Under the pieces are notes generated by a model. The model saw only the letters and a list, made by a program, of their open reading frames with translations. It searched no databases and was not told the DNA's origin. Shown piece after piece: positions 27,203 through 64,000 of a stretch of 64,000 nt of DNA. Source of the stretch: Flectonema sp. DT1601 (Eukaryota); the NCBI GenBank assembly GCA_964019425.1, contig OZ025806.1, positions 558,001 to 622,000 of the forward strand, given 5' to 3'. Numbering within the stretch: position 1 is the stretch's first letter; every line of letters starts with the position of its first letter. The position numbers were made by a program, and so were the translations under genes.

Positions 27203-27204
<2 letters not shown>

Positions 27205-36689: not shown

Positions 36690-36728
<39 letters not shown>

Positions 36729-38775: not shown

Positions 38776-38784
38776 CCAACGATT

Positions 38785-38821
38785 CCAACGATTCTAAAGC
38801 TACAGTTTCTGTACTTTATTG
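38785..38821 (+). other. Spliced-leader (mini-exon) sequence, diplonemid type, fused to a 5' UTR
   Basis: CCAACGATTCTAAAGCTACAGTTTCTGTACTTTATTG matches the euglenozoan SL core ACAGTTTCTGTACT.TATTG. It is followed by CAAA rather than the GT of an SL-RNA gene. Confidence 0.9.
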
Positions 38822-42926: not shown

Positions 42927-43625
42927 TTTTTATTAATTTTGAAAAAAAAACAATCAGTTTAGCGTCTTGACCAGGACGGAAAATAGAAAGTGATCGACAT
43001 AGTCGATCGGTAAAAAAACAATGATAACATTGTTTATTCTTTTTTTTTTTTTTTTTTTTTTAATATTTTTTTTTATTTTGAAAAAAAAAAAACAATCAGT
43101 TTAGCGTCTTGACCAGGACGGAAAATAGAAAGTAATCGACATAGTCGATCGATAAAAAAAAACAATGATAACATTGTTTATTCTTTTTTTTTATTTTAAA
43201 TTCTTTTTATTTATTTTTTAAAGAAAAGAAACAGAAAATAGAAATTAGTCGACAAAGTCGAACGATAAAAAAAAAACAATGATAACATTGTTTATTCTTT
43301 TTTTTTTGTATTTTTTTTAATATTCTTTTTTATTAATTTTGAAAAAAAAAACAATCAGTTTAGCGTCTTGACCAGGACGGAAAATAGAAAGTGATCGACA
43401 TAGTCGATCGATAAAAAAACAATGATAACATACCACTAAGAGAATAAGCTCAGATGATATCGAGCGCTTAGTGAAGTCTGGAAAGACGTTTGATAAAGCA
43501 GTGAGGCTAGCCGAGTTAGATGCAGAGAAAAAGCTGAAGAACGAGTGGAATGGGAAAGGGGATAAGGGGAGAGGAAGTTGGAATCCGCAGAATAAATTTA
43601 AGAGCAGTTATTCAAAGGGATTTTC

Positions 43626-44539
43626 GGGAAACGTTGGGGGGGCTGGCAAAGGTCAAAAGTGAACCGAGGCCAGCCCCGAGTAAAGCGGTGTTTAGTCCGC
43701 GTTGGTCCAGCAAGTTTTCAGAATTTCCATGGTATCAAAGGTTCAGGAAAGGTTTCCCTAGGAAAGTCGGTGTCAGAAGGGTCGACCCTTATTCCGGAAC
43801 GGATTTGGGAGATAAGGGAGAATCTCATGCAGTCGGAAGGAGCAGAGGTTTCCACATTGATTGGAAGCCTTATGAAAAACCAGATCGAGGATCAAGTAAG
43901 GAAGATTCAGCGGGTACGGAACAGAGAGTACACGTCGGATTTGACCGACTCGTTAATGGTGATGGAACAAATCGCCGGGAAGATCTGGGCGCAAAGCACA
44001 ATGAGAAGTCGACAGTGCTTGTGGGACCGTCTGCTAATTTGGGTGGAGAGAAACGATGTCCCTGTAAATCAGGATACAGTTGCGTTGTTTGTGACAGCGA
44101 CAAAGGTATCGAAGCAAGGAATGTTGGCCTACGCAAAGGCGTTCTCAGGCATGCTGAAGAGGATGGGATTGGAGAACGAGACATTGAAGCAGCTAGCGGC
44201 GGCGCTAAGGGCAGACGGCGCTGCGGTGCCGTTGGAGCAGGCGGAACCGATAAATCGTTCTGTTTTGATTGCGTGGGCAATGAAGCAAGATGTTCAGCTG
44301 AAGACGGGCTTACTGATCGCATGGAAATCGGCGGCGAGATGGGGGGAGGTATGGAAGCTGGGGAGAAGAAATTTCGTTTTCATTTCTGTGGAGGAAATAA
44401 TTGTGGATTGGTGGGATGTTCCGAAGGGACGGAGGGAAGATCCTTTCAAACCATCGAGATGGGTAGTGATAAAAGGCTTTTTGACTCCAGAGATAGCCCA
44501 GGGTTTGCTGGTTCTAGGGGACTTTGTAAGTCTGACAAA
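43626..44539 (+). pseudogene. Tyrosine recombinase of TATE/VIPER/DIRS type, 3'-truncated by family A
   Basis: SAM-like N-domain (RQCLWDRLLIW..VALFV..YAKAF), then LRADGA.VP..QAEPI and the first catalytic Arg box LLIAWKSAARWGEV. The H-x-x-R and Tyr part is missing. Confidence 0.8.
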
Positions 44540-44730
44540 GAATTCGATAGAGTGGGAAGTAACGGACTGGGAGCTTTTGGCTCCTGCCCTATTCCCGATG
44601 TAAACTTTCTTTTTATTTTTTTTTTTTTAACAGGCCCAGAGGGCGACAATGACTGTTGCTGACCAAGGAATAATATTCAAATGAATTTTCGTTTCAAAGA
44701 AACGAACAGAATTAAGAGAGAGGCAGAGAA

Positions 44731-44763
<33 letters not shown>

Positions 44764-45085
44764 AAAAAAAAAAAAAATATGAAGAGGAAATAATCAAACA
44801 TGAAAAAAATAAAAAAAAAAATAAAATATAAATAAAAAACGTTGTATGAAAAAGGAAAAAAAAGAAGAAAAAAAAAAAAGACCAGAAAAGGAAAGAGAAA
44901 ATGAAAAGGTATAATATTATTTTGGGGATATGAGGATAGCAGGGAGATGCTCTTTTTTTTTTTTTTTTTTTATTTATTATTTAAAAAAAAGGAAACAATC
45001 AGTTTAGCGTCTCGATCGGGACGGAAAATAGAAATTAATCGACATAGTCGATCGATAGAAAAAAAAACAATGATAACATTGTTTA

Positions 45086-45120
<35 letters not shown>

Positions 45121-47817
45121 CTTTTAATTATTTTAAAGAAAAAACAATCAGTTTAGCGTCTTGACCAGGACGGAAAATAGAAAGTGATCGACATAGTCGA
45201 TCGATAAAAAAACAATGATAACATTGTTTATTCTTTTTTTTTTTTTTTTAAATTCTTATTATTTATTTTTTAAAGAAAAAAAAACGGAAAATAAAAATTA
45301 GTCGACAAAGTCGAACGATAAAAAAAAAACAATGATAACATTGTTTATTCTTTTTTTTTTTGTTTTTTTTTTATATTCTTTTTTATTAATTTTGAAAAAA
45401 AAAACAATCAGTTTAGCGTCTTGACCAGGACGGAAAATAGAAAGTAATCGACATAGTCGATCGATAAAAAAACAATGATAACATTGTTTAATCTTTTTTT
45501 TTTTTTTAAATTCTTTTTATTTATTTTTTAAAGAAAAAAAAACGGAAAATAGAAATTAGTCGACAAAGTCGAACGGTAAAAAAACAATGATAACATTGTT
45601 TATTCTTTTTTTTTATTTTTTTTATATTTTTTTTAATTAATTTTGAAAAAAAAAACAATCAGTTTAGCGTCTTGACCAGGACGGAAAATAGAAAGCGATC
45701 GACATAGTCGATCGATAAGAAAACAATGATAATATTGTTTATTCTTTTTTTTTTATTTTAAATTCTTTTTATTTATTTTTTAAAAAGAAAAAAAAACGGA
45801 AAATAGAAATTAGTCAACAAAGTCGAACGATAAAAAAAAAAACAATGATAACATTGTTTATTCTTTTTTTTTATTTTAAATTCTTTTTATTTATTTTTTA
45901 AAGAAAAAAAAAAAAAGGAAAATAGAAATTAGTCGACAAAGTCGAACGATGAAAAAAAACAATGATAACATTGTTTATTCTTTTTTTTATTTTTTTTTTT
46001 TATTCTTTTTTATTAATTTTGAAAAAAAAAAACAATCAGTTTAGCGTCTTGACCAGGACGGAAAATAGAAATTAGTCGACAAAGTCGAACGATAAAAAAA
46101 ACAATGATAACATTGTTTATTCTTTTTTTATTTTTTTTTTATATTCTTTTTTATTAATTTTGAAAAAAAAAAAACAATCAGTTTAGCGTCTTGACCAGGA
46201 CGGAAAATAGAAAGTAATCGACATAGTCGATCGATAAAAAAAACAATGATAACATTGTTTATTCTTTTTTTTATTTTTTTTTTTTATTCTTTTTTATTAA
46301 TTTTGAAAAAAAAAAACAATCAGTTTAGCGTCTTGACCAGGACGGAAAATAGAAATTAGTCGACAAAGTCGAACGATAAAAAAAACAATGATAACATTGT
46401 TTATTCTTTTTTTATTTTGTTTTTATATTCTTTTTTATTAATTTTGAAAAAAAAAAAACAATCAGTTTAGCGTCTTGACCAGGACGGAAAATAGAAAGCG
46501 ATCGACATAGTCGATCGATAAGAAAACAATGATAATATTGTTTATTCTTTTTTTTTTATTTTAAATTCTTTTTATTTATTTTTTAAAAAGAAAAAAAAAC
46601 GGAAAATAGAAATTAGTCAACAAAGTCGAACGATAAAAAAAAAAACAATGATAACATTGTTTATTCTTTTTTTTTATTTTAAATTCTTTTTATTTATTTT
46701 TTAAAGAAAAAAAAAAAAAGGAAAATAGAAATTAGTCGACAAAGTCGAACGATGAAAAAAAACAATGATAACATTGTTTATTCTTTTTTTTATTTTTTTT
46801 TTTTATTCTTTTTTATTAATTTTGAAAAAAAAAAACAATCAGTTTAGCGTCTTGACCAGGACGGAAAATAGAAAGTAATCGACATAGTCGATCGATAAGA
46901 AAACAATGATAACATTGTGTATTCTTTTTTTTTTATTTTAAATTCTTTTTATTTATTTTTTAAAGAAAAAAACTGAAAATAGAAATTAGTCGACAAAGTC
47001 GAACGATAAAAAAAACAATGATAACATTGTTTATTCTTTTTTTTTATTTTAAATTCTTTTTATTTATTTTTTAAAGAAAAGAAACGGAAAATAGAAATTA
47101 GTCCGATAAAAAAAAAAACAATGATAACATTGTTTATTCTTTTTTTTATTTTTTTTTTTTATATTCTTTTTTATTAATTTTGAAAAAAAAAAACAATCAG
47201 TTTAGCGTCTTGACCAGGACGGAAAATAGAAATTAGTCGACAAAGTCGAACGATAAAAAAAAACAATGATAACATTGTTTATTCTTTTTTTTTTAAATTC
47301 TTTTTATTTATTTTTTAAAGGAAAAAAAACGGAAAATAGAAATTAGTCGACAAAGTCGAACGATAAAAAAACAATGATAACATTGTTTATTCTTTTTTTT
47401 TTTTTTTTATTTCTTTTTATTTATAAAAAAAAACAATCAGTTTAGCGTCTTGACCAGGACGGAAAATAGAAAGTGATCGACATAGTCGATCGATAAAAAA
47501 ACAATGATAACATTGTTTATTCTTTTTTTTATTTTAAATTCTTTTTATTTATTTTTTAAAGAAAAAAAAACGGAAAATAGAAATTAGTCGACAAAGTCGA
47601 ACGATGAAAAAAAACAATGGTAACATTGTTTATTCTTTTTTTTATTTTTTTTTTTTTTATTCTTTTTTATTAATTTTGAAAAAAAAAACAATCAGTTTAG
47701 CGTCTTGACCAGGACGGAAAATAGAAAGTAATCGACATAGTCGATCGATAAAAAAACAATGATAACATTGTTTATCCTTTTTTTTTTTTTTTACTTCTTT
47801 TTATTTATAAAAAAAAA
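44540..47817 (-). mobile_element. Family A element, long array (resumes at ~59161-59816)
   Basis: Head at 44540. Distinctive monomer variants (AAACTGAAAATAG; TTTCTTTTTATTTATAAAAAA) recur after 59160. Confidence 0.82.
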
Positions 47818-48341
47818 GGACAGCAGGGGGAAAGTTTGTTTCGTACCCCCCGGGTGCTTAGCGTCACCCTCCATGCGATGCTTGCGCAGGGAGAGCCAAG
47901 GGTCGAGAACCCTTGAGATTACCTTTGTTTCTTTTTGTGACTTTTTTTTTCGATAAAGTGAGAAGTAACGGACTGGGAGCTTTTGGCTCCTGCCCTATTC
48001 CCGATGTAAACTTTCTTTTTTTTTTTTTTTTTTTTTTTAACAGGCCCAAAGGGCGACAATGATGGTTGCTGACCAAGGAATAATATTCAAATGAATTTTC
48101 GTTTCAAAGAAACGAACAGAATTAAGAGAGAGGTAGAGAAAAAAAAAAAAAAAAAAAAAGAAAGAATAGAAAAAAAATATGAAGAGGAAATAATCAAACA
48201 TGAAAAAAAAAAAAAAAAAAATAAAATATAAATAAAAAACGTTGTATGAAAACGGAAAAAAAGAAAAAAAAAGACCAGAAAAGGAAAGAGAAAATGAAAA
48301 GGTATAATATTATTGTGGGGATATGAGGATAGCAGGGAGAT

Positions 48342-48372
<31 letters not shown>

Positions 48373-49045
48373 ATTTATTATTTAAAAAAAGGAAACAATC
48401 AGTTTAGCGTCTCGATCAGGACGGAAAATAGAAATTAATCGACATAGTCGATCGATAGAAAAAAAAACAATGATAACATTGTTTATTCTTTTTTTTTTTT
48501 TTTTTTTTTTAAATCCTTTTTATTATTTTTAAAGAAAAAACAATCAGTTTAGCGTCTTGACCAGGACGGAAAATAGAAAGTAATCGACATAGTCGATCGA
48601 TAAAAAAAAAACAATGATAACATTGTTTATTCCTTTTTTTTTTTTTTTTTTTTATTCTTTTTATTTATTTTTAAAGAAAAAACAATCAGTTTAGCGTCCT
48701 GACCAGGACGGAAAATTGAAAGTGATCGACATAGTCGATCGATAAAAAAACAATGATAACATTGTTTATTCCTTTTTTTTTTTTTTTTTTTATTCTTTTT
48801 ATTTATTTTTAAAGAAAAAACAATCAGTTTAGCGTCCTGACCAGGACGGAAAATTGAAAGTGATCGACATAGTCGATCGATAAAAAAACAATGATAACAT
48901 TGTTTATTCCTTTTTTTTTTTTTTTTTTTATTCTTTTTATTTATTTTTAAAGAAAAAACAATCAGTTTAGCGTCCTGACCAGGACGGAAAATTGAAAGTG
49001 ATCGACATAGTCGATCGATAAAAAAACAATGATAACATTGTTTAT

Positions 49046-49083
<38 letters not shown>

Positions 49084-50412
49084 TTTTAATTATTTTTTAA
49101 AGAAAAAACAATCAGTTTAGCGTCTTGACCAGGACGGAAAGTAGAAAGTGATCGACATAGTCGATCGATAAAAAACAATGATAACATTGTTTATTCTTTT
49201 TTTTTTTTTTTTTTTTTAATCCTTTTTATTATTTTAAAGAAAAAACAATCAGTTTAGCGTCTTGACCAGGACGGAAAATAGAAAGTGATCGACATAGTCG
49301 ATCGATAAAAAAACAATGATAACATTGTTTATTCTTTTTTTTTTCTTTTTTTTTTTTTTTTTTAACCTTTTAATTATTTTTTAAAGAAAAAACAATCAGT
49401 TTAGCGTCTTGACCAGGACGGAAAGTAGAAAGTGATCGACATAGTCGATCGATAAAAAACAATGATAACATTGTTTATTCTTTTTTTTTTTTTTTTTTTT
49501 TTTTTAATCCTTTTTATTATTTTAAAGAAAAAACAATCAGTTTAGCGTCTTGACCAGGACGGAAAGTAGAAAGTGATCGACATAGTCGATCGATAAAAAA
49601 CAATGATAACATTGTTTATTCTTTTTTTTTTTTTTTTTTTTTTTTTAATCCTTTTTATTATTTTAAAGAAAAAACAATCAGATTAGCGTCTTGACCAGGA
49701 CGGAAAATAGAAAGTGATCGACATAGTCGATCGATAAAAAAACAATGATAACATTGTTTATTCTTTTTTTTTTTTTTTTTTTAAATTCTTTTTATTTATT
49801 TTTAAAGAAAAAAAAAAAACGGAAAATAAAAATTAGTCGACAAAGTCGAACGATAAAAAAAAAACAATGATAACATTGTTTATTCTTTTTTTTTTTGTTT
49901 TTTTTTATATTCTTTTTTATTAATTTTGAAAAAAAACAATCAGTTTAGCGTCTTGACCAGGACGGAAAATAGAAAGAAATTGACATAGTCGATCGATAAA
50001 AAAAAACAATGATAACATTGTTTACTCTTTTTTTTTTTTTTTTTTAAATTCTTTTTATTTATTTTTTAAAAAGAAAAAAAAACGGAAAATAGAAATTAGT
50101 CAACAAAGTCGAACGATAAAAAAAAAAACAATGATAACATTGTTTATTCTTTTTTTTTTTATTTTTTTTTATATTTTGAAAAAAAAAAAAAAAAAAACAA
50201 TCAGTTTAGCGTCTTGACCAGGACGGAAAATAGAAAGTGATCGACATAGTCGATCGATAAAAAAAAACAATGATAACATTGTTTATTCTTTTTTTTTTTT
50301 TGGGAAAACCTACAGATCCACCCCCAGGTTTGGAGAAACGTACACTACGGTCACGGCCTTGTGTAGCATTTTCGACCCCAGAAGATTAAATAAAAAAAAA
50401 CTTTTTTTGCAT

Positions 50413-50484
50413 GTCACCACTGGTTTAGTGGTAGATATTTGGATTTGCATTCGCCAGGCTGCAGGTTCGAATCCGTGTCGGTCG
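50413..50484 (+). pseudogene. tRNA-like Pol III module (GCA at the anticodon position)
   Basis: A box TGGTTTAGTGG, B box GGTTCGAATCC, then a T run. Homologous to 27203-27273. Confidence 0.7.
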
Positions 50485-50726
50485 TTTTTTTTCCCCCCCC
50501 CCTTTTTTTTTGCTTCCACGTCATGTGATTTAACTGAGAACGATGCGGTGAATATCGACCAGACAGTAGACTACACAAAAAAAACAATCTTGACACAAAC
50601 AGAGAGGAAGGGTTGTGTGTGCTTCCATAAAAACACACAGTCTACAAAAAAGACATGCACGTTTTAAATCAAAACGTGAACAAAAAAGATAAAAGCTAGT
50701 AGTTAAATGTACAAAGGAGCCAGTGA

Positions 50727-52529
50727 TTATCTGATGGAATCGGGATTGCTTGAAGATGATGATGTCGACATGTCACGCTTCTTCCTCTTCCCTACAATGC
50801 GGGAAGCTCCTTCCGAAGGACCGTAGCGACAACTACGGCTGTTGTGCCCACGCCTTCTACACTTGCCACATTTATTCGGTATTGTCTCACCTGCACTGCG
50901 GATGCGAGTCTTCTTCGGCCTGCCAACACCCTTCCTCACTTCAGGTGGTAGTGTTCCATCAGATGTGGTGTCATGCGCGGGTTCAGGCTTCAGTGTGAGT
51001 TGATAGAGGCTGTCATAGGAAGTTGTCCACAGGTATGCTGGGCACACACGGCTGTCTGTCAATGTGTTTATATCCAGGTGCGCTGCAACTCTCAGAATAT
51101 GCATGCAAGGCAGGTTGTAGCGCCTGTAACTTGGACAGCTACATGTAAAGGGATGCCCTTCCTTCACAACAGAACCTGTTTGGGGTTGGTTTGGCTTGCC
51201 AACTTCAAACTCACCGTCTTCGAGGCTTGTGACTTGATACGTGAAAGCCACAGTTTCCTCACGTATCTTTTGCTCGATCGGTGGGATCGGTCTGTTGGTT
51301 GAGGTTTGTTCGGAGAATGCACCTCGCCTCTCCGCGAGCTTGTCGGTCAACCACCTTCGAGTCTGCTGGATCAGAGTTAAAACTGACCCCTCGCGTGCCG
51401 GCTTCAGCAAAGAGTTTATGCTTTCCACGGCGTTGCTGGTGTAGGTATCACACCTCGCAACATCATCTGGCCAGTAAGCATCTGCCCATCGCTTCATATC
51501 GGTGTTCTTGAGGTACCGATGGGCCTTCTTCCCGTGTTGCTGCTTAACATCCTTCAGCACCTCCACCACCTTCGTGCTGTCCGCCTTTGCCAGTTCCCAC
51601 ACTGTTTTTGTGGCTTCTTGCTTCGTCAGGCTAGTCTCCACAGCAACATTCTTAACCAGGTGGTTAATACAAATAGCGTGGTGGCGAATGGTGTCGTCCA
51701 ACGACGTGTCGGACTCCAGTCCCTTCTGCCTGTCGGAGAACAGTGTAAATCGGGATAGTCGATTTCCATACACAGCCAGTATTTTTCTGTTGTGGAGTGT
51801 CCACGACTGCAAGTCCTCCGACGCGGATATTGTGAACCCCAATGGCAGGAGCTTCCTGTTGGCGTCCAGACCCAGGGTCACCAGTAACACACCGCGAAAT
51901 GACCCATAAAGGCCACATGCGTCAGAGAAGATTACCGGTAGCAGGTAATCAATTGCCACAGGTGGCAGAAACGCCCAGAAGCAGCTGGCGAAAACCAAAT
52001 CCCTGCGTCGTTCAATGGAGAATGTCATCTCCGGATTTTTTTCTTTTAGGGCTTCGAAGTATGATTGGAGCTGCCCATACTCCGACCCTCGCTTTCCATA
52101 CACCTTCTCCTTCGCTATCGCTAACCCCTTTTCCACGGTGCCTTTCTTCACCGGAATATCCCTGAAGCTCTTCAGGTCAACTGCAGCGGCTTTAGGCCCG
52201 TAGTCTGGAAAACTACGCACCTTTTCCTCCAGCACCGATGCCACCCACTCTGCTACTCCATCCCCTTCTCTGTTGCACAAGCCAGGGGAACATGTGTGAG
52301 CTTTCACCTCCCTCACCTGGAGCTCACCTTCCTTGACTACCGCCTTCACAACATACAAGCAGTCTTCTTCATTCTTGCATACCAGGGTGGTTCGGTTGCG
52401 ATCACTCCTTTTCACCCTGAAGGTGTGGCCGTGCGTTGTTGACCACTCAAATACCCTGGCCTTCAGCGCTATGACGGTGGCAAACACTTCACCTTCCGAC
52501 ACCTGCAGTTGTGCAACGTTGTTGTTCAT
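50727..52529 (-). CDS. MULE transposase, 600 aa, intronless
   Basis: MuDR N-domain (GEVF..C...DCLY..HTC), DDE motifs FSDACGL, SDRQKGL, CINH and NAVESIN, SWIM CSC..LPCMH, knuckle CGKCRRRGHNSRSC. Confidence 0.95.
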   Translation of the reverse strand: MNNNVAQLQVSEGEVFATVIALKARVFEWSTTHGHTFRVKRSDRNRTTLVCKNEEDCLYVVKAVVKEGELQVREVKAHTCSPGLCNREGDGVAEWVASVLEEKVRSFPDYGPKAAAVDLKSFRDIPVKKGTVEKGLAIAKEKVYGKRGSEYGQLQSYFEALKEKNPEMTFSIERRRDLVFASCFWAFLPPVAIDYLLPVIFSDACGLYGSFRGVLLVTLGLDANRKLLPLGFTISASEDLQSWTLHNRKILAVYGNRLSRFTLFSDRQKGLESDTSLDDTIRHHAICINHLVKNVAVETSLTKQEATKTVWELAKADSTKVVEVLKDVKQQHGKKAHRYLKNTDMKRWADAYWPDDVARCDTYTSNAVESINSLLKPAREGSVLTLIQQTRRWLTDKLAERRGAFSEQTSTNRPIPPIEQKIREETVAFTYQVTSLEDGEFEVGKPNQPQTGSVVKEGHPFTCSCPSYRRYNLPCMHILRVAAHLDINTLTDSRVCPAYLWTTSYDSLYQLTLKPEPAHDTTSDGTLPPEVRKGVGRPKKTRIRSAGETIPNKCGKCRRRGHNSRSCRYGPSEGASRIVGKRKKRDMSTSSSSSNPDSIR

Positions 52530-52631
52530 TTGAAACTTAAGGATTAATAACTAACGGGGGGTTAAAAAAAAAAATGACGCAACCGGGACTCGAACCGACG
52601 CAGCTGGAAAAAAATTGAGCGGGGAAAAAAG

Positions 52632-52703
52632 TACCCCCGGGGGATTCGAACCCGCGACCCCCCGAATGTCAACCCGCTACCAACACCACTGTGCTATCCC
52701 GGA
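52632..52703 (-). pseudogene. tRNA-like Pol III module upstream of the transposase
   Basis: Minus strand reads TCCGGGATAGCACAGTGG..GGTTCGAATCC..TTTTTT. Homologous to 26007-26078. An extra B box GGTTCGAGTCC lies at ~52586-52596. Confidence 0.7.
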
Positions 52704-53114
52704 TTTCAAAAAATCGGCGCTCGGAATAGAGGGGCAAAGATTTTTGACACGAGCTTCACAAGGCCGTGACCGTAGTATACGTTTCTCCAAACCTGGGGGT
52801 GGATCTGTAGGTTTGCCCTTTTTTTTTTTAATCCTTTTTTTTTTTTTTAAAGAAAAAACAATCAGTTTAGCGTCTTGACCAGGACGGAAAATAGAAAGTA
52901 ATCGACATAGTCGATCGATAAAAAAAAAAACAATGATAACATTGTTTATTCTTTTTTTTTTTTTTTTAAATTCTTTTTATTTATTTTTTAAGAAAAAAAA
53001 AACGGAAAATAGAAATTAGTCGACATGGTCGAACGATAAAAAAACAATGATAACATTGTTTATTCTTTTTTTTATTTTTTTTTTTTATATTCTTTTTTAT
53101 TAATTTTGAAAAAA

Positions 53115-54900
53115 GTTGAATTTCCAGGTGAGATTTGGACTGTTAGCTTTTGGCTAAGGCCCTCCCTGAAGAGCAAGAACAAAAAAACTACTCACACCTG
53201 AAGAAAACATACACAAAGAACACACTGTAAGCTGTGTGTGTATTTTGTGTTTGTCACAACAGGAGAGAAAAGAAAGAATGTCAAGGTTGGTCACCTTGCC
53301 TATCAACGCACAACATTGGTGGTCTCTACTAGACCCTGAGTGATCCCACTGGATCTCTCATCGTTCATAGTACCCTGTGTGAAGTTATAAAATCAAAGGT
53401 AAACTATGAACTACAAATGACTTAGCCTGTTATTATAATGCCACAGGCAGGCCCTGCATTCAGCAACTATCCAGCAGTGCTTGGATGTCCTGATCTTCTT
53501 CTAAAAAAAAGAAAGAAAAACAAAACTGTAGCTGGGATCACTCAGGATCAACAGACTACCAATGCTACCTGTTGTACTTGCTCACTATGGGGGGTGATGC
53601 CAAACACCCAGAAGTACTAAACTGCTTTCCTTCTTGCTGCCCAGGAGTTTCTGACCAGAACTAATAGAAAATAAAAAGTAGATGGGAAACAATAAAAAGT
53701 AAAATGGATATAACTGAAGTTAAACAAGACAAATGAAGTAACAGACCAGAACAGAAAGAGAATTGTAATAGAAGATTACAAATAAAAAAAATGCAAGATC
53801 AACACATGATCAGGATACACCAGCAGCTAACAAACAACATAAAATTGAAGATCAGTTGCCAGAGTATTTCAACCATGGTAGAATACTCGCCTCTGGCAGG
53901 GATTATCCCAGACTTGTCCTTTAATCTAGTTGGACACCATGGCTTACAACCCTTCCAGAGGGAAGCACCATTATGACTTCTATTTTTTTTCTTCAAGAAA
54001 ATCATAAGGTGGGAACAAAGAAAAATGCTAAGAGGAACCCCCTATTAACACCTAAGACATCTAAACTGCAGCCCAGCCTATGCCCAATGCACTAACAGGT
54101 CATTCCCTCACACTCAGATCAAAAAATCAAAGTTCAGAGTGCATCTTAGCGTGAATGAGAGAATTTCCTCCCGCTTATTTTGAACAAAAGGGATAGGAGA
54201 AGGGATAGAAAACGAACATAACAATAAAATTCTAAGTGAGAAACACTTAGCAGAAACACTTAGCAGTTTTTAGGAGCTGAAAAGCAAAAAAAAAATCTAA
54301 GTGAGAAACACTTAGTAGAAACAATTTGTAGCTAATTAAGCTGAAAATAAAAAAATAAAAAATTCCTAAGTGAGAAATACTTAGCAACTTTTAGAACAAA
54401 TATTTCAGTAAATAACCTGTAATGATTAAACCATTACAAGTTTGATGCCAAAACTGACAAGGACTGAGTTGAATTTCCAGGTGAGATTTGGACTGTTAGC
54501 TTTTGGCTAAGGCCCTCCCTGAAGAGCAAGAACAAAAAAACTACTCACACCTGAAGAAAACATACACAAAGAACACACTGTAAGCTGTGTGTGTATTTTG
54601 TGTTTGTCACAACAGGAGAGAAAAGAAAGAATGTCAAGGTTGGTCACCTTGCCTATCAACGCACAACATTGGTGGTCTCTACTAGACCCTGAGTGATCCC
54701 ACTGGATCTCTCATCGTTCATAGTACCCTGTGTGAAGTTATAAAATCAAAGGTAAACTATGAACTACAAATGACTTAGCCTGTTATTATAATGCCACAGG
54801 CAGGCCCTGCATTCAGCAACTATCCAGCAGTGCTTGGATGTCCTGATCTTCTTCTAAAAAAAAGAAAGAAAAACAAAACTGTAGCTGGGATCACTCAGGA
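53115..54900 (-). mobile_element. Family C element: 1353-bp unit plus a ~430-bp partial tandem copy
   Basis: GTTGAATTTCCAGGTGAGATTTGGACTGTTAGC starts at 53115 and again at 54468. Confidence 0.88.
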
Positions 54901-56913
54901 AAATAGAAAGTAATCGACATAGTCGATCGATAAAAAAAAAAACAATGATAACATTGTTTATTCTTTTTTTTTTTTTTTTAAATTCTTTTTATTTATTTTT
55001 TAAGAAAAAAAAAACGGAAAATAGAAATTAGTCGACATGGTCGAACGATAAAAAAACAATGATAACATTGTTTATTCTTTTTTTTATTTTTTTTTTTTAT
55101 ATTCTTTTTTATTAATTTTGAAAAAAAAAAAAAAAACAATCAGTTTAGCGTCTTGACCAGGACGGAAAATAGAAAGTAATCGACATAGTCGATCGATAAA
55201 AATACAATGATAACATTGTTTAATCTTTTATAATTTTTTATTTTTTTTTTGTTTTAAAAAAAAAAAAAAAAAAACAAGCGGAATTGATCATAATGGGTGG
55301 TAGGGGTTGTTATAACTTCGTTTGAAAATTCTTCTTTTTTGATTTCTTTTTTTTTTTTTTTCTTTTTACAGGAGTTAAGATCACTTTCAGGAGACAACAC
55401 ATACACATTAACAAGAGCAGCAAGCAGAGTTGACACTATCAATTCAAATTTGAAATACCGGGAATTAATTTACAAGGAGGTATCTCAAGTGACTTGGTAT
55501 CTCTAGCGTGTCGGTATCTCTGGAGTGCTGGTATCTCGTATGTGCGTTGGTATCTCATGAGTGATGGTATCTCTTGTGCATTAGAGAAACGAAAAAGAAT
55601 GTCATGACCATGACGGAAGAATTGAGGAATTGAGTTAACATGTTCAATTTAACTTATTTAAACTTTTTTTTTTTTTAACAGACCGTAACTATTTGAAAAT
55701 AAAATGTAGATGGGAAACAGTGAAAAGTAAAATGGATGATAAAATTAAATGAGAAATATGACATAACAGACCAGATAGAGAGTATTAAAGGGAAATTGAA
55801 AAGGAAAAGAGAAACTAGGTTAACACTTATTTAAAATTAAGACCGGTTAGTCAGTTTAAGGTCTTGACTAGGACCAACAAAAAAGAAAGAAAAAAAATTA
55901 ACGATCAAGCTGAGCTGATCCTGTTTTTATTACAAATAGGGGAGCGGGAGGGATGGAAGGAATAGAGGAAAAAAAAAGAAAAGGTTGATCAATTGGATCT
56001 GATCGTCGAGAAGAAGAAATTATTTTAAAGGTTGATCGGTATAGCCGATCGTTGAGAAAAATAAACAGATATAAATAGGAATTTCGATAAGTGGGAAGTA
56101 ACGGACTGGGAGCTTTTGGCTCCTGCCCTATTCCCGACGTAAACTTTCTTTTTATTTTTTTTTTTTTTTTTTAACAGGCCCAAAGGGCAATCAGTTTAAA
56201 TTAAAAAAAGAAAAAAAGATTAACGATCAAGCTGAGCTGATCTTGTTTTTATTTAAAATTAGGGGAGCGGGAGGGATGGAAGGAATAAAGGAAAAAAAAA
56301 AAAAAAAGGTCGATCAATTGGATCTGATCGTCGAGAAGAAGAAAACAATTATTTATAAAAAAAAAGAAAAAAATGGTCGGTATAGCCGATCGTTGAGAAA
56401 AGAACAGATATAAATACAATCGGTTTTGGTGATCGACGAGTGGAGCGATCACTTGACAAGAAGGAAAAAGAAAGGACCGATTAATTGGGGCTTTGATTGT
56501 ATTCCCAAGGCATGTTTTTTTTTTTTTTTTTATTATTCAATTACATTATTATTATTTTTTTTTTTTTTTAAATTAATAATCACATTTTGTTCAAAAATAT
56601 TTCATATTAGAGTAAAAGAAAAAGAAAAAAAGAAATAAGAGAAAAAAAAAAAAAAAACCATTGCTGGCCCCCTCACCACTCATAGAGGATGAGGAGGCCA
56701 GTAAGGCGTCACTCAAATCTATGCCAAGCCTTGGGAACTTGGATTGGGGTTTAGACCATTTATAATTAACAATTAACAATTAACCTGATTAACGTTATGA
56801 TCTGACGGACATAAACATATCGATAAAATAATACAAACAAAAACGAACAATAAATAATAAATAAGCTAAAAAACTAAATAAACAAAGTGATGTGAAAGTA
56901 AGGAAAAAGAGAA

Positions 56914-58068
56914 TTACAAGGGGGTGGAGTCACCGTGAACGTCATCAGCAGAACATCTCCTTCGATTGTAACGATATCTTGATGGAGGGGTTCGTTTTTT
57001 CAGAGTTGAACGCTCAGACTTTCTCGGCGGAGTTTCATTTTCCTCATGTTCTTCTGTGTCTGGCGGACTCAAACCTTCTGCCCATGAAGCTAATTGGAAC
57101 TTCAGGGCCGCTATTTGAGACCGTGCCAAGGCGAGTTGAGCATTTAAATCGCTCGCCAGTCCCGTTAACATCATGGATTGCTCAAGCTGCTCTGCGTGAG
57201 TTGTACACCGTTGGTGATTCAGCTCCGAGAGGCGAAGTTGGGCATCCAAAAGTTGTTCTGAGAGCTCTGCCGCTTTCTCGTTTGTTTCGAGAGAGTCATC
57301 TACTGCTCGACAGTAGTTCTCGAGTAAGTCAATTCTACCCTCGGACCATTGTCTCGCAATAGGTGTATTCTCTTTAACGGAGATAACGTGACTCTCTTGT
57401 CGTAAAATCTTGGTCGGCGTGCGGTCGAGAGCTTCACTCTGCGGCATTGTCGGAGGAATTGAGGCTAGAGGACAAAGAGGGGTGATATAATTAAGGGTAG
57501 GGATAAGGGGTTTAATAAGAGGAGTAAAAAGACTACTCGTAGTTGTAAAGAGCGAGAGGTAGTTCTTTGCTATCTTCATCATAGCAACAGATTCATACAG
57601 AACGGGGGTTCGGGGGGAAACTTGTTGACTAAAGTGGGTCATACGGGGACGCGCGGCACGCAAACTCTCGACCTCCTGTTGAGTATAGAAAAGTCTTATT
57701 TTACTTTCTCTTTCCTCATTACATTTGGTCTCCAATTCGTTCGACAGAAGAACAAACCTTTGATGGTAATTAAAGAGCGCCATTTCCGATAGGTCTGCTC
57801 TCTGAGTCAGATTTGCGAGCTCACGTTTCCTGTAATCTTCCACTAAGTCATATTGTCGAACTAGTGCAGAAAGAGAAGTCTTCGATTCATCGCGTTCTGC
57901 TGTTAACCGTTGAATTACTCCTTCCAGAAGTTCATATTCTTTTCTATCTTTTTCAATAATTAAAACAGGGGGCGCAGGAGGAAGTGAGGATGGATCCTGG
58001 TTGGTAGCTTTGATCTCAACAGGTAATCCATTTAGTAACTGCTTGTCTTTCTCGAGGGAGGCTGACAT
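56914..58068 (-). CDS. Coiled-coil protein of block B (~384 aa from MSASLEK), basic C-terminus
   Basis: Long ORF that stays open in both copies despite substitutions. Confidence 0.7.
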   Translation of the reverse strand: MSASLEKDKQLLNGLPVEIKATNQDPSSLPPAPPVLIIEKDRKEYELLEGVIQRLTAERDESKTSLSALVRQYDLVEDYRKRELANLTQRADLSEMALFNYHQRFVLLSNELETKCNEERESKIRLFYTQQEVESLRAARPRMTHFSQQVSPRTPVLYESVAMMKIAKNYLSLFTTTSSLFTPLIKPLIPTLNYITPLCPLASIPPTMPQSEALDRTPTKILRQESHVISVKENTPIARQWSEGRIDLLENYCRAVDDSLETNEKAAELSEQLLDAQLRLSELNHQRCTTHAEQLEQSMMLTGLASDLNAQLALARSQIAALKFQLASWAEGLSPPDTEEHEENETPPRKSERSTLKKRTPPSRYRYNRRRCSADDVHGDSTPL

Positions 58069-58072
58069 CGCA

Positions 58073-58531
58073 TTAAAGTAAAATAAAAAATAGAACATAA
58101 AAAATTCGTTCTTTCATTTGCTCTAATTCGTTTTCTAAAATCTGGCATTTCAAGGAAAGTTTCAGCCTTAATTTTCCTTCTTTTTTTTTGTACAAGGGGG
58201 TTTGAGAACCCATGTCAGATTGAGTTCTTATCACTATAGCGAAATCAGCAGGAAGTGTTTGCGATCCCGTTGACATGAGTTCAGGTGGGGGAGTCTGGAA
58301 AGAGATGGAAGAAATAGAAGAGAATGACAAGGAGAGTCCAGTGAGCTCATCCTCATCTAACAAAACAGAAGGGGCCGGGGAGGAAGAAGAACCATTGGCA
58401 ATAAGTAGAATAGAAAGAGCCGATGCGTAACAAGTTTGCCAGATAAAACATTTCTCAAGCCACGATCTTTCAATGGTGAGCTTTTCGATCGTTTTCAGTT
58501 TTGTTACTTTGTGGATTTTGACTTCTTCCAC
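58073..58531 (-). CDS. Upstream ORF of block B, 5'-truncated at the family D junction, hydrophobic C-terminus
   Basis: 152-codon open frame. Its stop lies 4 nt before the next ATG. Confidence 0.45.
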   Translation of the reverse strand: MEEVKIHKVTKLKTIEKLTIERSWLEKCFIWQTCYASALSILLIANGSSSSPAPSVLLDEDELTGLSLSFSSISSISFQTPPPELMSTGSQTLPADFAIVIRTQSDMGSQTPLYKKKEGKLRLKLSLKCQILENELEQMKERIFYVLFFILL

Positions 58532-59816
58532 ATTGGATTGCAGTGGCGCAACCTATCACCCCAACTGTTGGTATCTTTTTATTTTTTTTATTTAAAGAAA
58601 AAAGCAGGCTAAGTCGCCTGAGCTGGCATCGCCAGAATATTTAACTTCACATGGCAATGTCAGCTTGTGAAGGGATCCAGTTGGACCAAAGGTTTTCTCC
58701 CCCCACTCTATTTATCGTCATTGGTGCGCACCTTCGAACAGGAAGGCCAACATTGACGGAATTTTTTTTACTTCTCTTCCCAAGGTTGAACCTTGGGAAA
58801 AAAACAAACAATAAACACAGTGTAGACAAACACCCGCCGGACATCTGCAGAGCAGCGATCGATGTCGATGTCTTCGTTGTCGAACTTCCTGGCGTTTATG
58901 TTTTTGTTTTTAACAACAATACAACACCAACTAACAGGTTTGTCTCATTGCCCGTTCTTTCTTGTTTCCCTTTGCCGCCGGAAGAACGAAGGTCGACGGA
59001 GGTCCGAAGCATTGCTTGCGATGATGTTCCGGTATGTGTTGCGTCTCTGTTATTTGTTTGTTTCAACTCAATTGGTTCATCTCAGGTTTTAGAAGTCTTC
59101 GTCCTGTTCGATGGGAAGGGCCTGAATCAAAAGTTCACTGCCCCTATTCCTCTCCCAAATTTCTTATTTTTATTTTAAATTCTTTTTATTTATTTTTTAA
59201 AGAAAAAAAACTGAAAATAGAAATTAGTCGACAAAGTCGAACGATAAAAAAACAATGATAACATTGTTTATTCTTTTTTTTTTTTTTTATTTCTTTTTAT
59301 TTATAAAAAAAAACAATCAGTTTAGCGTCTTGACCAGGACGGAAAATAGAAAGTGATCGACATAGTCGATCGATAAAAAAACAATGATAACATTGTTTAT
59401 TCTTTTTTTTTATTTTAAATTCTTTTTATTTATTTTTTAAAGAAAAAAAAAACGGAAAATAGAAATTAGTCGACAAAGTCGAACGATGAAAAAAAACAAT
59501 GATAACATTGTTTATTCTTTTTTTTATTTTTTTTTTTTTTATTCTTTTTTATTAATTTTGAAAAAAAAAAAACAATCAGTTTAGCGTCTTGACCAGGACG
59601 GAAAATAGAAAGTAATCGACATAGTCGATCGATAAGAAAACAATGATAACATTGTTTATTCTTTTTTTTTATTTTAAATTCTTTTTATTTATTTTTTAAA
59701 GAAAAAAAACTGAAAATAGAAATTAGTCGACAAAGTCGAACGATAAAAAAAACAATGATAACATTGTTTATTCTTTTTTTTTTTTTTATTTTAAATTCTT
59801 TTTATTTATTTTTTAA

Positions 59817-62676
59817 CAGGAGTTAAGATCACTTACATGAGTTAACACAACACAGATACGAGAGTCGCAAACTGAGGTAACACTACCAATTCAACAAAAA
59901 ATAATCAGGATCGTACACAAGGAGGAGAGTTCATTCTACCTCTCATTGTCCTTGCTGGTATCTTAAGTGTCTTGGTATCTCTTGTGTGTCGGTATCTCGG
60001 AAGTGCTGGTATCTCGTATGTCGCCCTCTGGGCCTGTTAAAAAAAAAAAAAAATAAAAAGAAAGTTTACATCGGGAATAGGGCAGGAGCCAAAAGCTCCC
60101 AGTCCGTTACTTCCCACTCTATCGAATTCTGCGTTGGTATCTCTTGCGTGTTGGTATCTCTTGCACATAAAAAAAAAATTGAGTTAACATGATCAGTTTT
60201 ATTTAACATTAAAGACAGACCGGAACTATTTGAAAATAAAATGTAGATGGGAAACAGTGAAAATTAAAATGAATGATAAAATTAAATGAGATTTATGACA
60301 TAACAGACCATAATAAAAAAAGAGCATCTCCCTGCTATCCTCATATCCCCACAATAATATTATACCTTTTCATTTTCTCTTTCCTTTTCTGGTCTTTTTT
60401 TTTTCTTTTTTTCCTTTTTCATACAACGTTTTTTATTTATATTTTATTTTTTTTTTTTTTTTTCATGTTTGATTATTTCCTCTTCATATTTTTTTTCTAT
60501 TCTTTCTTTTTTTTTTTTTTTTTTTCTCTACCTCTCTCTTAATTCTGTTCGTTTCTTTGAAACGAAAATTCATTTGAATATTATTCCTTGGTCAGCAACA
60601 GTCATTGTCGCCCTTTGGGCCTGTTAAAAAAAAAAAAAAAAATAAAAAGAAAGTTTACATCGGGAATAGGGCAGGAGCCAAAAGCTCCCAGTCCGTTACT
60701 TCCCACTTTATCGAAATTCATAGAGAGTAATAAAGGGAAAAGGAAAACGGGAAGGGTTCATTCACTTAGTTAAAGTTAAGACCGATTAGTCAGTTTAAGG
60801 TCTTGACTAGGACCAACAAAAAAAAAAAAAAAAATAACGATCAAGCTGAGCTGATCTTGTTTTTATTAAAATAAGGGGAGCGGGAGGGATGGGAGGAATA
60901 AAGGAAAAAAAAAGAAAAGGTCGATCAATTGGATCTGATCGTCGAGAAGAAGAAGACAATTATTTTAAAGGTCGATCGGCATAGCCGATCGTTGAGAAAA
61001 AATAACCAGATATAAATACAATCAGTTTAAATTTAAAAAAAAAAAAAAAAAGATTAACGATCAAGCTGAGCTGATCTTGTTTTTATTAAAATAAGGGGAG
61101 CGGGAGGGATGGAAAGAATAAAGGAAAAAAAAAAAAAAAAAAAAAAAGGTCGATCAATTGGATCTGATCGTCGAGAAGAAGAAAACAATTATTTTAAAAA
61201 AAAATGATCGGTATAGCCGATCGTTGAGAAAAGAACAGATATAAATACAATCGGTTTTGGTGATCGACGAGTGGAGCGATCACTTGACAAGAAGGAAAAA
61301 AGAAAGGACCGATTAATTGGGGCTTTGGTTGTATTCCCAAGGCATGTTTTTTTTTTTTTTTTTTTATTATTCATTTACATTATTTTTTTTTTTTTTTTTT
61401 TAAATTAATAATCACATTTTGTTCAAAAATATTTCATATTAGAGTAAAAGAAAAAGAAAAAAAAAGAGATAAGAGAAAAAAAAAAAAAAAACCATTGCTG
61501 GCCCCCTCACCACTCATAGAGGATGAGGAGGCCAGTAAGGCGTCACTCAAATCTATGCCAAGCCTTGGGAACTTGGATTGGGGTTTAGACCATTTACAAT
61601 TAACAATTAACAATTAATCTGATTAACGTTATGATCTGACGGACATAAACATATCGACAAAATATTACAAACAAAACGAACAATAAATAATAAATAAGCT
61701 AATAAACTAAATAAACAAAGTGATGTGAAAGTAAGGAAAAAGAATTACAAGGGGGTGGAGTCACCGTGAACGTCATCAGCAGAACATCTCCTTCGATTAT
61801 AACGATATCTTGATGGAGGGGTCCGTTTTTTCAGAGTTGAACGCTCAGACTTTCTCAGCGGAGTTTCAATTTCCTCATGTTCTTCTGTGTCTGGCGGACT
61901 CAAACCTTCTGCCCATGAAGCTAATTGGAACTTCAGGGCCGCAATTTGAGACCGTGCCAAGGCGAGTTGAGCATTTAAATCGCTCGCCAGTCCCGTTAAC
62001 ATCATGGATTGCTCAAGCTGCTCTGCGTGAGTTGTACACCGTTGGTGATTCAGCTCCGAGAGGCGAAGTTGGGCATCCAAAAGTTGTTCTGAGAGCTCTG
62101 CCGCTTTCTCGTTTGTTTCGAGAGAGTCATCTACTGCTCGACAGTAGTTCTCGAGTAAGTCAATCCTACCCTCGGACCATTGTCTCGCAATAGGTGTATT
62201 CTCTTTAACGGAGATAACGTGGCTCTCTTGTCGTAAAATCTTGGTCGGCGTGCGGTCGAGAGCTTCACTCTGCGGCATTGTCGGAGGAATTGAGGCTAGA
62301 GGACAAAGAGGGGTGATATAATTAAGGGTAGGGATAAGGGGTTTAATAAGAGGAGTAAAAAGACTACTCGTAGTTGTAAAGAGCGAGAGGTAGTTCTTTG
62401 CTATCTTCATCATAGCAACAGATTCATACAAAATAGGGGATCGGGGGGAAACTTGTTGACTAAAGTGGGTCATGTGGGGACGTGCGGCACGCAAACTCTC
62501 GACCTCCTGTTGAGTATAGAAAAGTCTTATTTTACTTTCTCTTTCCTCATTACATTTGGTCTCCAATTCGTTCGACAGAAGAACAAACCTTTGATGGTAA
62601 TTGAAAAGCGCCATTTCCGATAGGTCTGCTTTCTGAGTCAGATTTGCGAGCTCACGTTTCCTGTAATCTTCCACTA
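59817..62676 (-). repeat. Block B copy 2, with short family A insertions at ~60021-60129 and ~60310-60719
   Basis: Collinear with copy 1 once the insertions are removed. Confidence 0.85.
61745..62676 (-). pseudogene. 5'-truncated second copy of the block B coiled-coil ORF
   Basis: Near-identical to 56914-57845. The N-terminus is replaced by the family A head at 62677. Confidence 0.8.
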
Positions 62677-62868
62677 GAATTTCGATAAAGTGGGAAGTAA
62701 CGGACTGGGAGCTTTTGGCTCCTGCCCTATTCCCGATGTAAACTTTCTTTTTATTTTTATTTTTTTTTAACAGGCCCAAAGGGCGACAATGATGGTTGCT
62801 GACCAAGGAATAATATTCAAATGAATTTTCGTTTCAAAGAAACGAACAGAATTAAGAGAGAGGCAGAG

Positions 62869-62899
<31 letters not shown>

Positions 62900-63085
62900 G
62901 AAAAGAGAAAAAAAAATGAAGAGGAAATAATCAAACATGAATAAAAAAAAAACAAAAAAAATATATATATAAATAAAAAACGTTGTATGAAAAAGGAAAA
63001 AAAAGAAAAAAAAAAGACCAGAAAAGGAAAGAGAAAATGAAAAGGTATAATATTATTGTGGGGATATGAGGGATAGCAGGGAGAT

Positions 63086-63116
<31 letters not shown>

Positions 63117-64000
63117 CTTATTTATTATTTAAAAAAAGGAAACAATCAGTTTAGCGTCTCGATCAGGACGGAAAATAGAAATTAATCGACATAGTTGATC
63201 GATAGAAAAAAAAACAATGATAACATTGTTTATTCATTTTTTTTTTTTTTTTTTTTTTTTTAAATCTTTTTAATTATTTTAAAGAAAAAACAATCAGTTT
63301 AGCGTCTTGACCAGGACGGAAAATAGTAAGTAATCGACATAGTCGATCGATAAAAAAAAAACAATGATAACATTGTTTATTCCTTTTTTTTTTTTTTTAT
63401 TCTTTTTATTTATTTTTAAAGAAAAAACAATCAGTTTAGCGTCCTGACCAGGACGGAAAATAGAAAGTAATCGACATAGTCGATCGATAAAAAAAACAAT
63501 GATAACATTGTTTAATCTTTTTTTTTTTTTTTATTTTAATTCTTTTTATTTATTTTTAAAAAGAAAAAAAATGGAAAATAGAAATTAGTCAACAAAGTCG
63601 AACTTTAATTCTTTTTATTTATTTTTAAAAAAAAAAAAAAAAAAAAAGAATAAACAATGTTATCATTGTTTTTTTATCGATCGACTATGTCGATCACTTT
63701 CTATTTCCCGTCCTGGTCAGGACGCTAAACTGATTGTTTTTTCTTTAAAAATAAATAAAAAGAATAAAAAAAAAAAAAAAAGGAATAAACAATGTTATCA
63801 TTGTTTTTATTTTATCGATCGACTATGTCGATTACTTTCTATTTTCCGTCCTGGTCAAGACGCTAAACTGATTGTTTTTTCTTTAAAAAATAAAAAGAAG
63901 GATTTAAAAAAAAGAAAAAAAAAAAAAAAAAGAATAAACAATGTTATCATTGTTTTTTTATCGATCGACTATGTCGATCACTTTCTATTTTTCGTCCTGG
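62677..64000. mobile_element. Family A element; the array flips orientation at ~63604-63645
   Basis: Head at 62677. Monomers read in one direction to 63603 and reverse-complemented from ~63647. Confidence 0.85.

What the first reader, a model, noticed from the sequence alone, without database searches (positions are those of the whole stretch)
44540..62676. Family A arrays may be the 3' part of a large coding element (head + array + block B ORFs), Terminon-like in layout
Seen: after removing nested insertions, an A head and array run into block B twice (47948 to 58532, and 44540 to 62676 via 59161-59816). The inner ~10.6-kb A+B block sits between two contiguous halves of a D copy, as if inserted as one piece. 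The B ORFs point toward the A head, so the stem-loop would be the RNA 3' end. B carries a covarying version of the A hairpin (CAGTTTAAGGTCTTGACTAGGACC vs CAGTTTAGCGTCTTGACCAGGACG) and shares GTAGATGGGAAACA..AAAAGTAAAATGGAT..TAACAGACCAGA with family C. Established: Terminons, the giant Athena PLE elements, carry coiled-coil ORFs and are 5'-truncated. The analogy is inference, since no RT is visible here.
Basis: inference. Interest (0 to 1): 0.8.

Follow-up and report, generated by a model that had tools for sequence, protein, structure and literature searches.

The report
R2-type retrotransposon with long hairpin tail
This stretch holds two broken rear ends of a copy-and-paste jumping gene of the R2 type, whose enzyme carries an unusual 559-amino-acid extra arm of unknown use; its RNA likely ends in a 4-5 kb tail of repeated hairpins and a small stem-loop that the enzyme is predicted to grip, also on two shorter hitch-hiking elements.

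Summary
The layout is real; the Terminon analogy is wrong. Head + array + block B sits between two contiguous halves of a D copy with no target duplication, and a second head/array also runs into B. The two B 'ORFs' are one frame broken in a T-run. Database copies 98% identical to it continue upstream in frame through a restriction-like endonuclease, CCHC knuckle, reverse transcriptase and two N-terminal zinc fingers (about 1,740 aa; clusters of 235 and 47 members); best solved matches are R2 proteins. So B is the 3' end of an RLE non-LTR retrotransposon (R2 group, HERO-like, clade not proven), not a Penelope-like element. Unusual: a 559-aa coiled-coil extension after the endonuclease (55 of 68 relatives end 54-83 aa after the same motif), present in two recombined versions; an inferred 4.3-4.8 kb 3' UTR with 17-23 hairpin units; no poly(A) tail but a terminal stem-loop that covaries across families A, C and D; and insertions with either 0-1 bp or 228/530 bp flanking duplications. 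That array + head is the regular 3' UTR rests on two junctions only.

The parts
44540..44955 (-). A head of the outer element: constant 3' end of the retrotransposon RNA (3' terminus at 44540, ...ATCGAATTC, no poly(A)); inserted into a tyrosine-recombinase-like ORF
   Evidence: 11 A termini in the window share this end
44564..44589 (-). terminal stem-loop GGGC-A-GGAGC-CAAAA-GCUCC-CA-GUCC, shared with compensatory changes by families C and D; predicted RT recognition signal
   Evidence: 54 of 54 cells paired, 3 of 9 pairs change on both sides, G-U pairs fall on this strand
44956..47807 (-). hairpin array of the outer element (22 units of about 115-145 bp), inferred 3' UTR
47808..47941 (+). D copy, 5' half (non-coding element inserted into the outer array in opposite orientation)
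47942..48345 (-). A head of the inner element; last 3 bases of the usual terminus replaced by a short A run on the sense strand
48346..50301 (-). hairpin array of the inner element, part 1 (14 units)
50302..52818 (-). nested MULE DNA transposon (66-bp TIRs, 607-aa frame), inserted in a T run; not part of the element
   Evidence: (MULE, SWIM, DBD_Tnp_Mut)
52819..53113 (-). inner array, part 2; 52886-53113 is duplicated at 54898-55125 around the C insertion
   Evidence: 228 bp, 100% identical; next best of 71 matches 93.9%
53114..54897 (-). nested C element: 1353-bp unit plus a 5'-truncated head-to-tail second unit; non-coding, same terminal stem-loop, shares a motif with B
54898..55276 (-). target duplication (228 bp) and last unit of the inner array
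55277..56913 (-). B1 non-coding part: ORF-proximal 3' UTR with GGTATCTC repeats, the motif shared with C, and two 210-bp repeats carrying variants of the array hairpins
56083..56187 (-). 105-bp 5'-truncated A head inserted into B1, no target duplication
   Evidence: absent from B2; contigs of 3 of 4 runs join across it
56914..58531 (-). 3' end of the retrotransposon ORF: residues 23-559 of the C-terminal extension after the RLE (Ser-rich linker, long helices, Pro-rich linker, long helices, basic tail); frameshifted in a T run near 58085-58090; 5'-truncated at 58531
   Evidence: (P0055 651-813 and 789-1187 match at 90% and 98%)
58533..59163 (+). D copy, 3' half with its terminal stem-loop
59160..59816 (-). 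outer array resumes; 59160-59691 duplicates 47278-47807 around the D insertion
   Evidence: 530 bp, 97.0%; next best of 44 matches 92.6%
59817..61744 (-). B2 non-coding part (3' UTR), with two nested A heads in opposite orientation at 60019-60129 and 60312-60719
61745..62676 (-). last 310 codons of the ORF in the outer element, cut by a further A insertion at 62676
62676..64000 (-). further A element (head + array) with an inversion junction near 63603; runs off the window

Best explanation
Block B is the 5'-truncated end of the single ORF of an R2-group (restriction-like endonuclease) non-LTR retrotransposon, and the A array plus head is likely its 4.3-4.8 kb 3' UTR, which the protein is predicted to grip at the terminal stem-loop to start target-primed reverse transcription. 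Shown: the ORF is ZnF-ZnF-RT-thumb-CCHC-RLE followed in frame by a 559-aa extension (about 1,740 aa when overlapping database copies are laid end to end); copies have a fixed end at the head and random other ends. Inferred: the RLE nicks many unrelated sites; cDNA starts at the ...AAUUC end without a poly(A) tail and usually stops early, giving the 105-bp to 10-kb A pieces; second-strand cleavage is usually opposite the first nick (0-1 bp change) and sometimes far away (228 and 530 bp duplications); C and D are non-autonomous RNAs moved in trans through the same stem-loop; the array grows and shrinks by RT slippage or unequal exchange. For the extension my best guess (about 1 in 3) is an oligomerisation and RNA-binding arm (long helices plus basic tail) that does the job of an ORF1 protein on the long UTR.
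For: phmmer with P0002 gave proteins where RLE motifs run into the B ORF; 16 of the 125 stored proteins carry that junction motif; P0055, P0048, P0052, P0056 run from RT or thumb to the window's stop codon at 96-98% identity. Pfam RVT_1 E 2.4e-26 and zf-RVT; PDB sequence hits R2 6.6e-33 before LINE-1 1.9e-20; the model's top 7 structural matches are R2 proteins, E 7.9e-20; RH, PD-E, K..KY and RG motifs (PMC4838377) are present. Unit of movement: clean insertion into D; 2 of 2 B copies abut an array in the same orientation and neither has a terminal stem-loop of its own; arrays keep one polarity, long units at the head and long/short alternation towards B; B repeats carry a covarying array hairpin. 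Stem-loop covariation across A, C, D. 10 synonymous against 6 replacement codon differences in 309 codons between B1 and B2. Long duplications beside RLE elements are published (R9 126 bp, Dualen median 900 bp; PMC9977147).
Against: The array-B link is seen only twice, at junctions about 93 bases apart; 9 of 11 A termini do not reach B, and one array abuts a C fragment instead (38567). No RT or RLE DNA lies in the window (tblastn); the upstream part comes from unnamed database proteins without DNA. P0032 and P0052 begin in array sequence, so truncated copies also sit inside arrays. The first array hairpin has its G-U pair on the opposite strand. Folding z-scores of the C and D termini are weak (-0.9, -1.1), and the covariation rests on three families. 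The extension has low pLDDT and no homolog, so its role is a guess.
Confidence: 0.85

Rival explanations
1. The LINE ends inside B near the array junction. A is a separate non-autonomous element; the LINE landed in A arrays and read-through to the A stem-loop carried the composite along (3' transduction), so head + array is a passenger in some lineages only.
For: Junctions differ by about 93 bases and the B 3' parts are only 69-86% alike next to the array against 97-100% in the ORF; P0032 and P0052 show 5'-truncated copies inside arrays in the same orientation; some HERO families target repeats (PMC4640811); A occurs 9 of 11 times without B.
Against: No array remnant at the 5' end of B1 and no loss of D bases; B has no terminal stem-loop or tail at the junction; B repeats and array units share hairpins; array polarity is the same in the four longer arrays.
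Confidence: 0.1
2. Terminon-like Penelope element with separate coiled-coil ORFs.
For: 5' truncation, a partial tandem in C, an inversion near 63603 and coiled coils are PLE-like (PMC8557442; PMC5408684).
Against: The coiled-coil frame is fused to an R2-type RT-CCHC-RLE; no hammerhead core with a stem II in A, B, C or D and no telomeric repeats. C or D could still be moved by an unseen PLE, but they share the A stem-loop.
Confidence: 0.02
3. Rolling-circle (Helitron/Replitron) or tyrosine-recombinase mobilisation of hairpin-ended, TSD-less elements.
For: Terminal hairpin, no target duplication, tandem arrays; a YR-like ORF lies at 43602-44539 (motif recalled, no Pfam hit).
Against: The linked enzyme is RT + RLE; the hairpin end is fixed and the other end is randomly truncated; the YR-like ORF is a target of A, not a part.
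Confidence: 0.02
4. The nesting is an assembly artefact of a repeat pile.
For: Long homopolymers; the B1 frameshift lies in a T run.
Against: Base-exact D halves; B, C and A pieces occur in contigs of 4 runs from 4 studies (one may be the source); family proteins lie on many separate contigs.
Confidence: 0.01

Closest known systems
HERO clade of RLE non-LTR retrotransposons
   Same: Single ORF with N-terminal zinc fingers, RT, CCHC knuckle, RLE; no fixed target (PMC4640811 says HERO holds many non-specific families). The RT nests among 60-odd unnamed relatives that include a lancelet protein; the GRxTWRHD / ELTxP / EVGxRG pattern as HERO-typical is recalled.
   Different: 559-aa extension after the RLE; 4.3-4.8 kb structured 3' UTR; no tail repeat; protist-like host. 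No named HERO sequence was available, so the clade is not proven.
R2 (R2Bm, R2Tg)
   Same: Best sequence and structure matches; protein binds a structured 3' UTR for TPRT, copies are 5'-truncated (PMC13580325).
   Different: Not in 28S rDNA; about 20% identity; ORF does not end after the RLE.
CRE/SLACS/CZAR of trypanosomatids
   Same: RT + RLE, internal repeat regions, zinc fingers (PMC12278014).
   Different: Those target spliced-leader genes and have a poly(A) tail; this has neither.
R9 (Adineta) and Dualen (Chlamydomonas)
   Same: RLE-bearing elements with very long target duplications (PMC9977147).
   Different: Here most insertions have 0-1 bp change and only two have 228/530 bp; no APE domain seen.
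Terminons (Athena PLE)
   Same: Long, 5'-truncated, coiled-coil coding sequence near a structured 3' end.
   Different: Different RT class; one fused ORF; own endonuclease; no hammerheads or telomeric repeats; roughly 10 kb rather than up to 40 kb (PMC5408684).
LINE/SINE pairs sharing a 3' end (e.g. EhLINE1/EhSINE1)
   Same: Non-autonomous partners C and D share the 3' recognition structure (papers seen as search listing only; details recalled).
   Different: Sharing is by structure with compensatory changes over about 26 nt, not by long sequence identity; no tRNA head found.

Membership tests
RLE non-LTR retrotransposon (R2 group) | non-LTR-type RT | tested here: met
   P0026 RVT_1 E 2.4e-26; P0053 vs R2 E 6.6e-33; in database copies, not in the window
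RLE non-LTR retrotransposon (R2 group) | CCHC knuckle followed by RLE with RH, PD-(D/E), K..KY, RG motifs | tested here: met
   motifs from PMC4838377; model matches R2 structures
RLE non-LTR retrotransposon (R2 group) | fixed 3' end, 5' truncation, no LTRs | tested here: met
   11 A termini share one end; other ends lie at 105 bp to more than 10 kb
RLE non-LTR retrotransposon (R2 group) | TPRT activity | not testable with these tools
   needs biochemistry
HERO clade | RT groups with named HERO families | tested here: inconclusive
   FastTree on 67 of 71 rows (P0121, P0122 dropped for gaps; P0055, P0034 as near-duplicates): nested among unnamed relatives incl. a Branchiostoma protein, apart from an oomycete RNase H-bearing group; no labelled HERO, NeSL or R4 reference was available
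HERO clade | mostly no strict target site | tested here: met
   A heads sit in B, C, D, a Gag-like and a YR-like ORF and a LINE remnant with unlike flanks
R2 clade | insertion in 28S rDNA | tested here: not met
   only a 136-bp LSU scrap in 19000-64000, far from any A end
CRE clade | poly(A) tail and spliced-leader gene target | tested here: not met
   10 of 11 termini have no A tail, one has about 9 A; flanks are unrelated
Terminon / Athena PLE | Athena-type PLE RT | tested here: not met
   linked RT is R2-type
Terminon / Athena PLE | hammerhead ribozymes and reverse-complement telomeric repeats at the 3' end | tested here: not met
   Rfam: none; pattern scan: cores in C lack stem II, none in A, B, D; 0 hits for 5 telomere repeat types
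Terminon / Athena PLE | several separate co-oriented ORFs | tested here: not met
   the two B frames are one ORF fused to the RLE
SINE (for C and D) | Pol III head derived from tRNA, 5S or 7SL | tested here: inconclusive
   no tRNA in the window, no Rfam hit, no clear box B at their 5' ends; the D 5' end is known from one copy only

The most novel reading that the evidence does not exclude
A new structural type of RLE LINE: a swappable coiled-coil arm fused behind the endonuclease replaces ORF1p, assembles on a variable-length hairpin array in the 3' UTR and lets the second nick fall hundreds of bases away, while a 26-nt tail-less stem-loop is enough for trans-mobilisation of unrelated RNAs; relatives use the same C-terminal slot for deubiquitinase domains (UCH, JAB), making it a cargo position not described in the papers searched.
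Probability: 0.2. Interest if true: 0.75.

Novelty: new variant of a known kind. Interest (0 to 1): 0.5.

Why it matters
RLE retrotransposon proteins normally end shortly after the endonuclease. Here a young, high-copy family keeps a 559-aa in-frame arm in two versions on a 99% identical enzyme, and a branch of relatives carries ubiquitin proteases in the same slot, which points to a modular cargo position. The three-family covariation defines a minimal 3' signal that can be tested directly, and R2-type proteins are being developed for RNA-templated gene insertion (PMC13580325), so a non-site-specific one with a small tail-less recognition element is of practical interest. It also explains the satellite-like arrays in this genome as a 3' UTR and warns that partial tandems, inversions and coiled coils do not by themselves indicate a Penelope-like element.

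Tried and rejected
No whole genome is held, so B copies could not be counted in DNA. Pfam on both B frames: only sub-threshold coiled-coil hits. ESM Atlas: generic coiled-coil neighbours with low recognition; nothing usable for a host protein. Single-sequence model pTM 0.25, no Foldseek match. Metagenome scan: 1 locus of 259 candidates, L001, a bacterial chance match, dropped. Rfam: nothing above gathering score. P0007 alone gave no Pfam or PDB hit. No second RLE and no clear membrane helix in the extension (best 19-residue hydropathy 1.4); no homology between the extension and any of 68 relatives (best E 0.93). A degenerate array unit in B1's extra 93 bases scored 87 against a shuffle maximum of 80 on AT-rich sequence, and a whole-unit A/B alignment scored 74 against 80, so neither is claimed. 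Read laying on the array-B junction was inconclusive: contigs of 3 of 4 runs extend 98-195 letters towards the array beyond their last aligned base, but the tool skipped that part as repeat and showed no letters; no reads were laid on the ORF side. No RNA holder listed. Earlier findings: none. The Terminon paper itself is not held; Repbase was not available, so similar HERO entries may exist there. Literature searches for a C-terminal extension, HERO in diplonemids/Euglenozoa or deubiquitinase cargo listed no paper describing them; only listings were seen and no supplements were read.
Full report
Setting. The window has a run of intron-poor host genes on the minus strand (8 of 8 long host-like frames in 1-18.5 kb) followed by 45 kb of nested mobile elements. 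No genome is held. The host was not identified; the one-strand gene cluster next to a repeat block with MULE and YR-like elements resembles what is described for Diplonema (PMC10161547, passages), which is a resemblance only.

Observation. The D copy that hosts the inner block is split between ...TTTTTGTGAC (47941) and TGGATTGCAG (58533), which are adjacent in the intact D copy. Inside are an A head, an array of 17 units interrupted by a MULE and a C element, and B1. The outer element runs from 44540 through 23 units into B2 and is cut at 62676. Net of nested insertions the distance from the ORF stop to the head terminus is 4,330 and 4,802 bases. The two junctions differ: B1 has about 93 extra bases; B1 and B2 are 69-86% alike next to the array and 97-100% in the ORF.

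What B encodes. The first homolog search gave 2 proteins; P0002 joins the two B frames into one, and the window copy is frameshifted in a T run. phmmer over 1.84 billion representatives gave 22 hits, among them P0007 and P0008, where the B ORF is preceded in frame by RPD...ILELTCP...KEKKY...EVGVRG, and P0006 with a CCHC knuckle. A search for longer forms gave P0024, P0025 and P0026, clusters of 47, 1 and 235 members (15 members listed for each large cluster). P0055, P0048, P0052 and P0056 run from the RT or thumb to the window's own stop at 96-98% identity; 16 of 125 stored proteins carry the RLE-to-extension junction motif; P0057 adds two N-terminal CCHC-type fingers read by eye. The overlaps add up to about 1,740 aa. 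Pfam finds RVT_1 and zf-RVT, PDB sequence search ranks R2 above LINE-1, and an alignment-based model (pLDDT about 90 over residues 30-630, low beyond) matches seven R2 structures first. The RH, PD-E, K..KY and RG motifs described for R2Bm (PMC4838377, passages) are all present. No RT or RLE DNA is in the window itself.

The extension. It is 559 aa: Ser-rich linker, helices of about 50 and 100 residues, Pro-rich linker, about 95 helical residues, basic tail. Two versions exist on a 99% identical enzyme: nearly identical for about 190 residues, then roughly half identical with indels that keep the frame, which suggests recombination between old subfamilies and selection for translation; B1 and B2 differ by 10 synonymous and 6 replacement codons in 309. 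Of 68 relatives (only 586-1866 aa searched), 55 end 54-83 aa after the EVG motif, 6 are cut short, and 7 are longer; four of the seven carry a C-terminal UCH (P0078) or JAB (P0088, P0089, P0092) domain and group together, apart from this family. None resembles the extension. Its function is not shown.

The 3' end. A pattern scan found 17 terminal hairpins: 11 A, 4 C, 2 D. On six aligned copies the nine-pair stem is paired in 54 of 54 cells, 3 pairs change on both sides, slid controls reach 24-48%, and the G-U/U-G pairs fall on the ORF's sense strand; with three families this is three events, not six. The end is ...AAUUC with no tail in 10 of 11 A copies. Where the empty site can be read (D; B1 against B2 at three sites; C) the change is 0-1 base; contigs of 3 of 4 public runs lack the 105-bp head in B1. 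In contrast C and the reversed D are flanked by 228 bp (100%, next best 93.9% of 71 matches) and 530 bp (97.0%, next best 92.6% of 44) duplications; long duplications are reported for R9 and Dualen (PMC9977147, passages). C has a head-to-tail partial tandem, and the last A copy has an inversion, features also typical of PLEs (PMC8557442, passages). No hammerheads or telomeric repeats were found.

How it most likely works. Shown: enzyme architecture, fixed end, random truncation, clean insertion of head + array + B. Inferred: the RNA runs ORF, B UTR, array, head; the protein binds the terminal stem-loop, nicks DNA with little site preference and reverse transcribes from the head, mostly stopping early; C and D borrow the enzyme through the same stem-loop. 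Against this: only two array-B junctions, unequal; 9 of 11 A ends never reach B; P0032 and P0052 show truncated copies inside arrays, so a LINE-into-array origin with read-through remains possible (0.1). Read laying did not settle the junction.

Comparison. It is a member of the RLE non-LTR group. HERO is the likely clade (PMC4640811, passages; PMC9004415, passages; PMC5678591, passages), but no labelled reference was available; in a FastTree of 67 of 71 rows it pairs with P0058 and P0077 (support 0.998) among unnamed relatives, rooted on three proteins one of which is an oomycete RNase H-bearing element. It fails R2 (no rDNA target), CRE (no poly(A), no SL target; PMC12278014, passages) and Terminon tests (PMC5408684, passages; the Terminon paper was not held). 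Six searches (listings only) showed no paper on a post-RLE coiled-coil or deubiquitinase extension; Repbase and supplements were not seen and may hold such cases.

Verdict. Observation confirmed; interpretation partly supported. New variant of a known kind; interest 0.5.

Noticed in passing
P0078, P0088, P0089, P0092 (database proteins): RLE LINE relatives with a ubiquitin protease fused after the endonuclease: UCH (E 8e-60) or JAB/MPN (E 1e-16); they form one branch. Not found described.
   Followed up: partly
window 38781-39926 and 43432-44539: Gag-like ORF and YR-like ORF of a probable DIRS/VIPER/TATE-type element, each interrupted by an A insertion; no Pfam hit, assignment from recalled motifs.
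   Followed up: partly
window 50302-52818, 33475-36980, 25882-27384, 40800-41560: Two coding MULEs, a non-coding MULE derivative holding a 136-bp LSU rRNA scrap, and another TIR element; three of them carry box B-like GTTCGAA motifs inside their ends. All sit in A arrays.
   Followed up: no
window 23215-24961: Element with CCCTT...AAGGG ends at a TTAA site inside an A array, piggyBac-like by recalled signature; degenerate.
   Followed up: no
window 27834-28614 and 31597-32376: Two 99.9% identical 780-bp TIR elements in opposite orientation, each inside an A head; the heads look exchanged around them, suggesting an inversion.
   Followed up: no
window 20618-22650: Remnant of another LINE-like element (LPxRxGGLG motif, weak UCH hit E 1e-4) with a C and an A inserted at its ends.
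   Followed up: no
window 38567-38775: An A array joins an internal C fragment in the same orientation, the one array end in the window that abuts C rather than B.
   Followed up: partly
window 626-18424: Eight host-like ORFs all on the minus strand, without evident introns (F-box, histidine phosphatase, MAPEG among them), as in polycistronic protist genomes.
   Followed up: no
window 30912-31217 and 19100-19233: 300-bp element of 16-bp repeats with inverted ends, inserted between an A array and its head.
   Followed up: no
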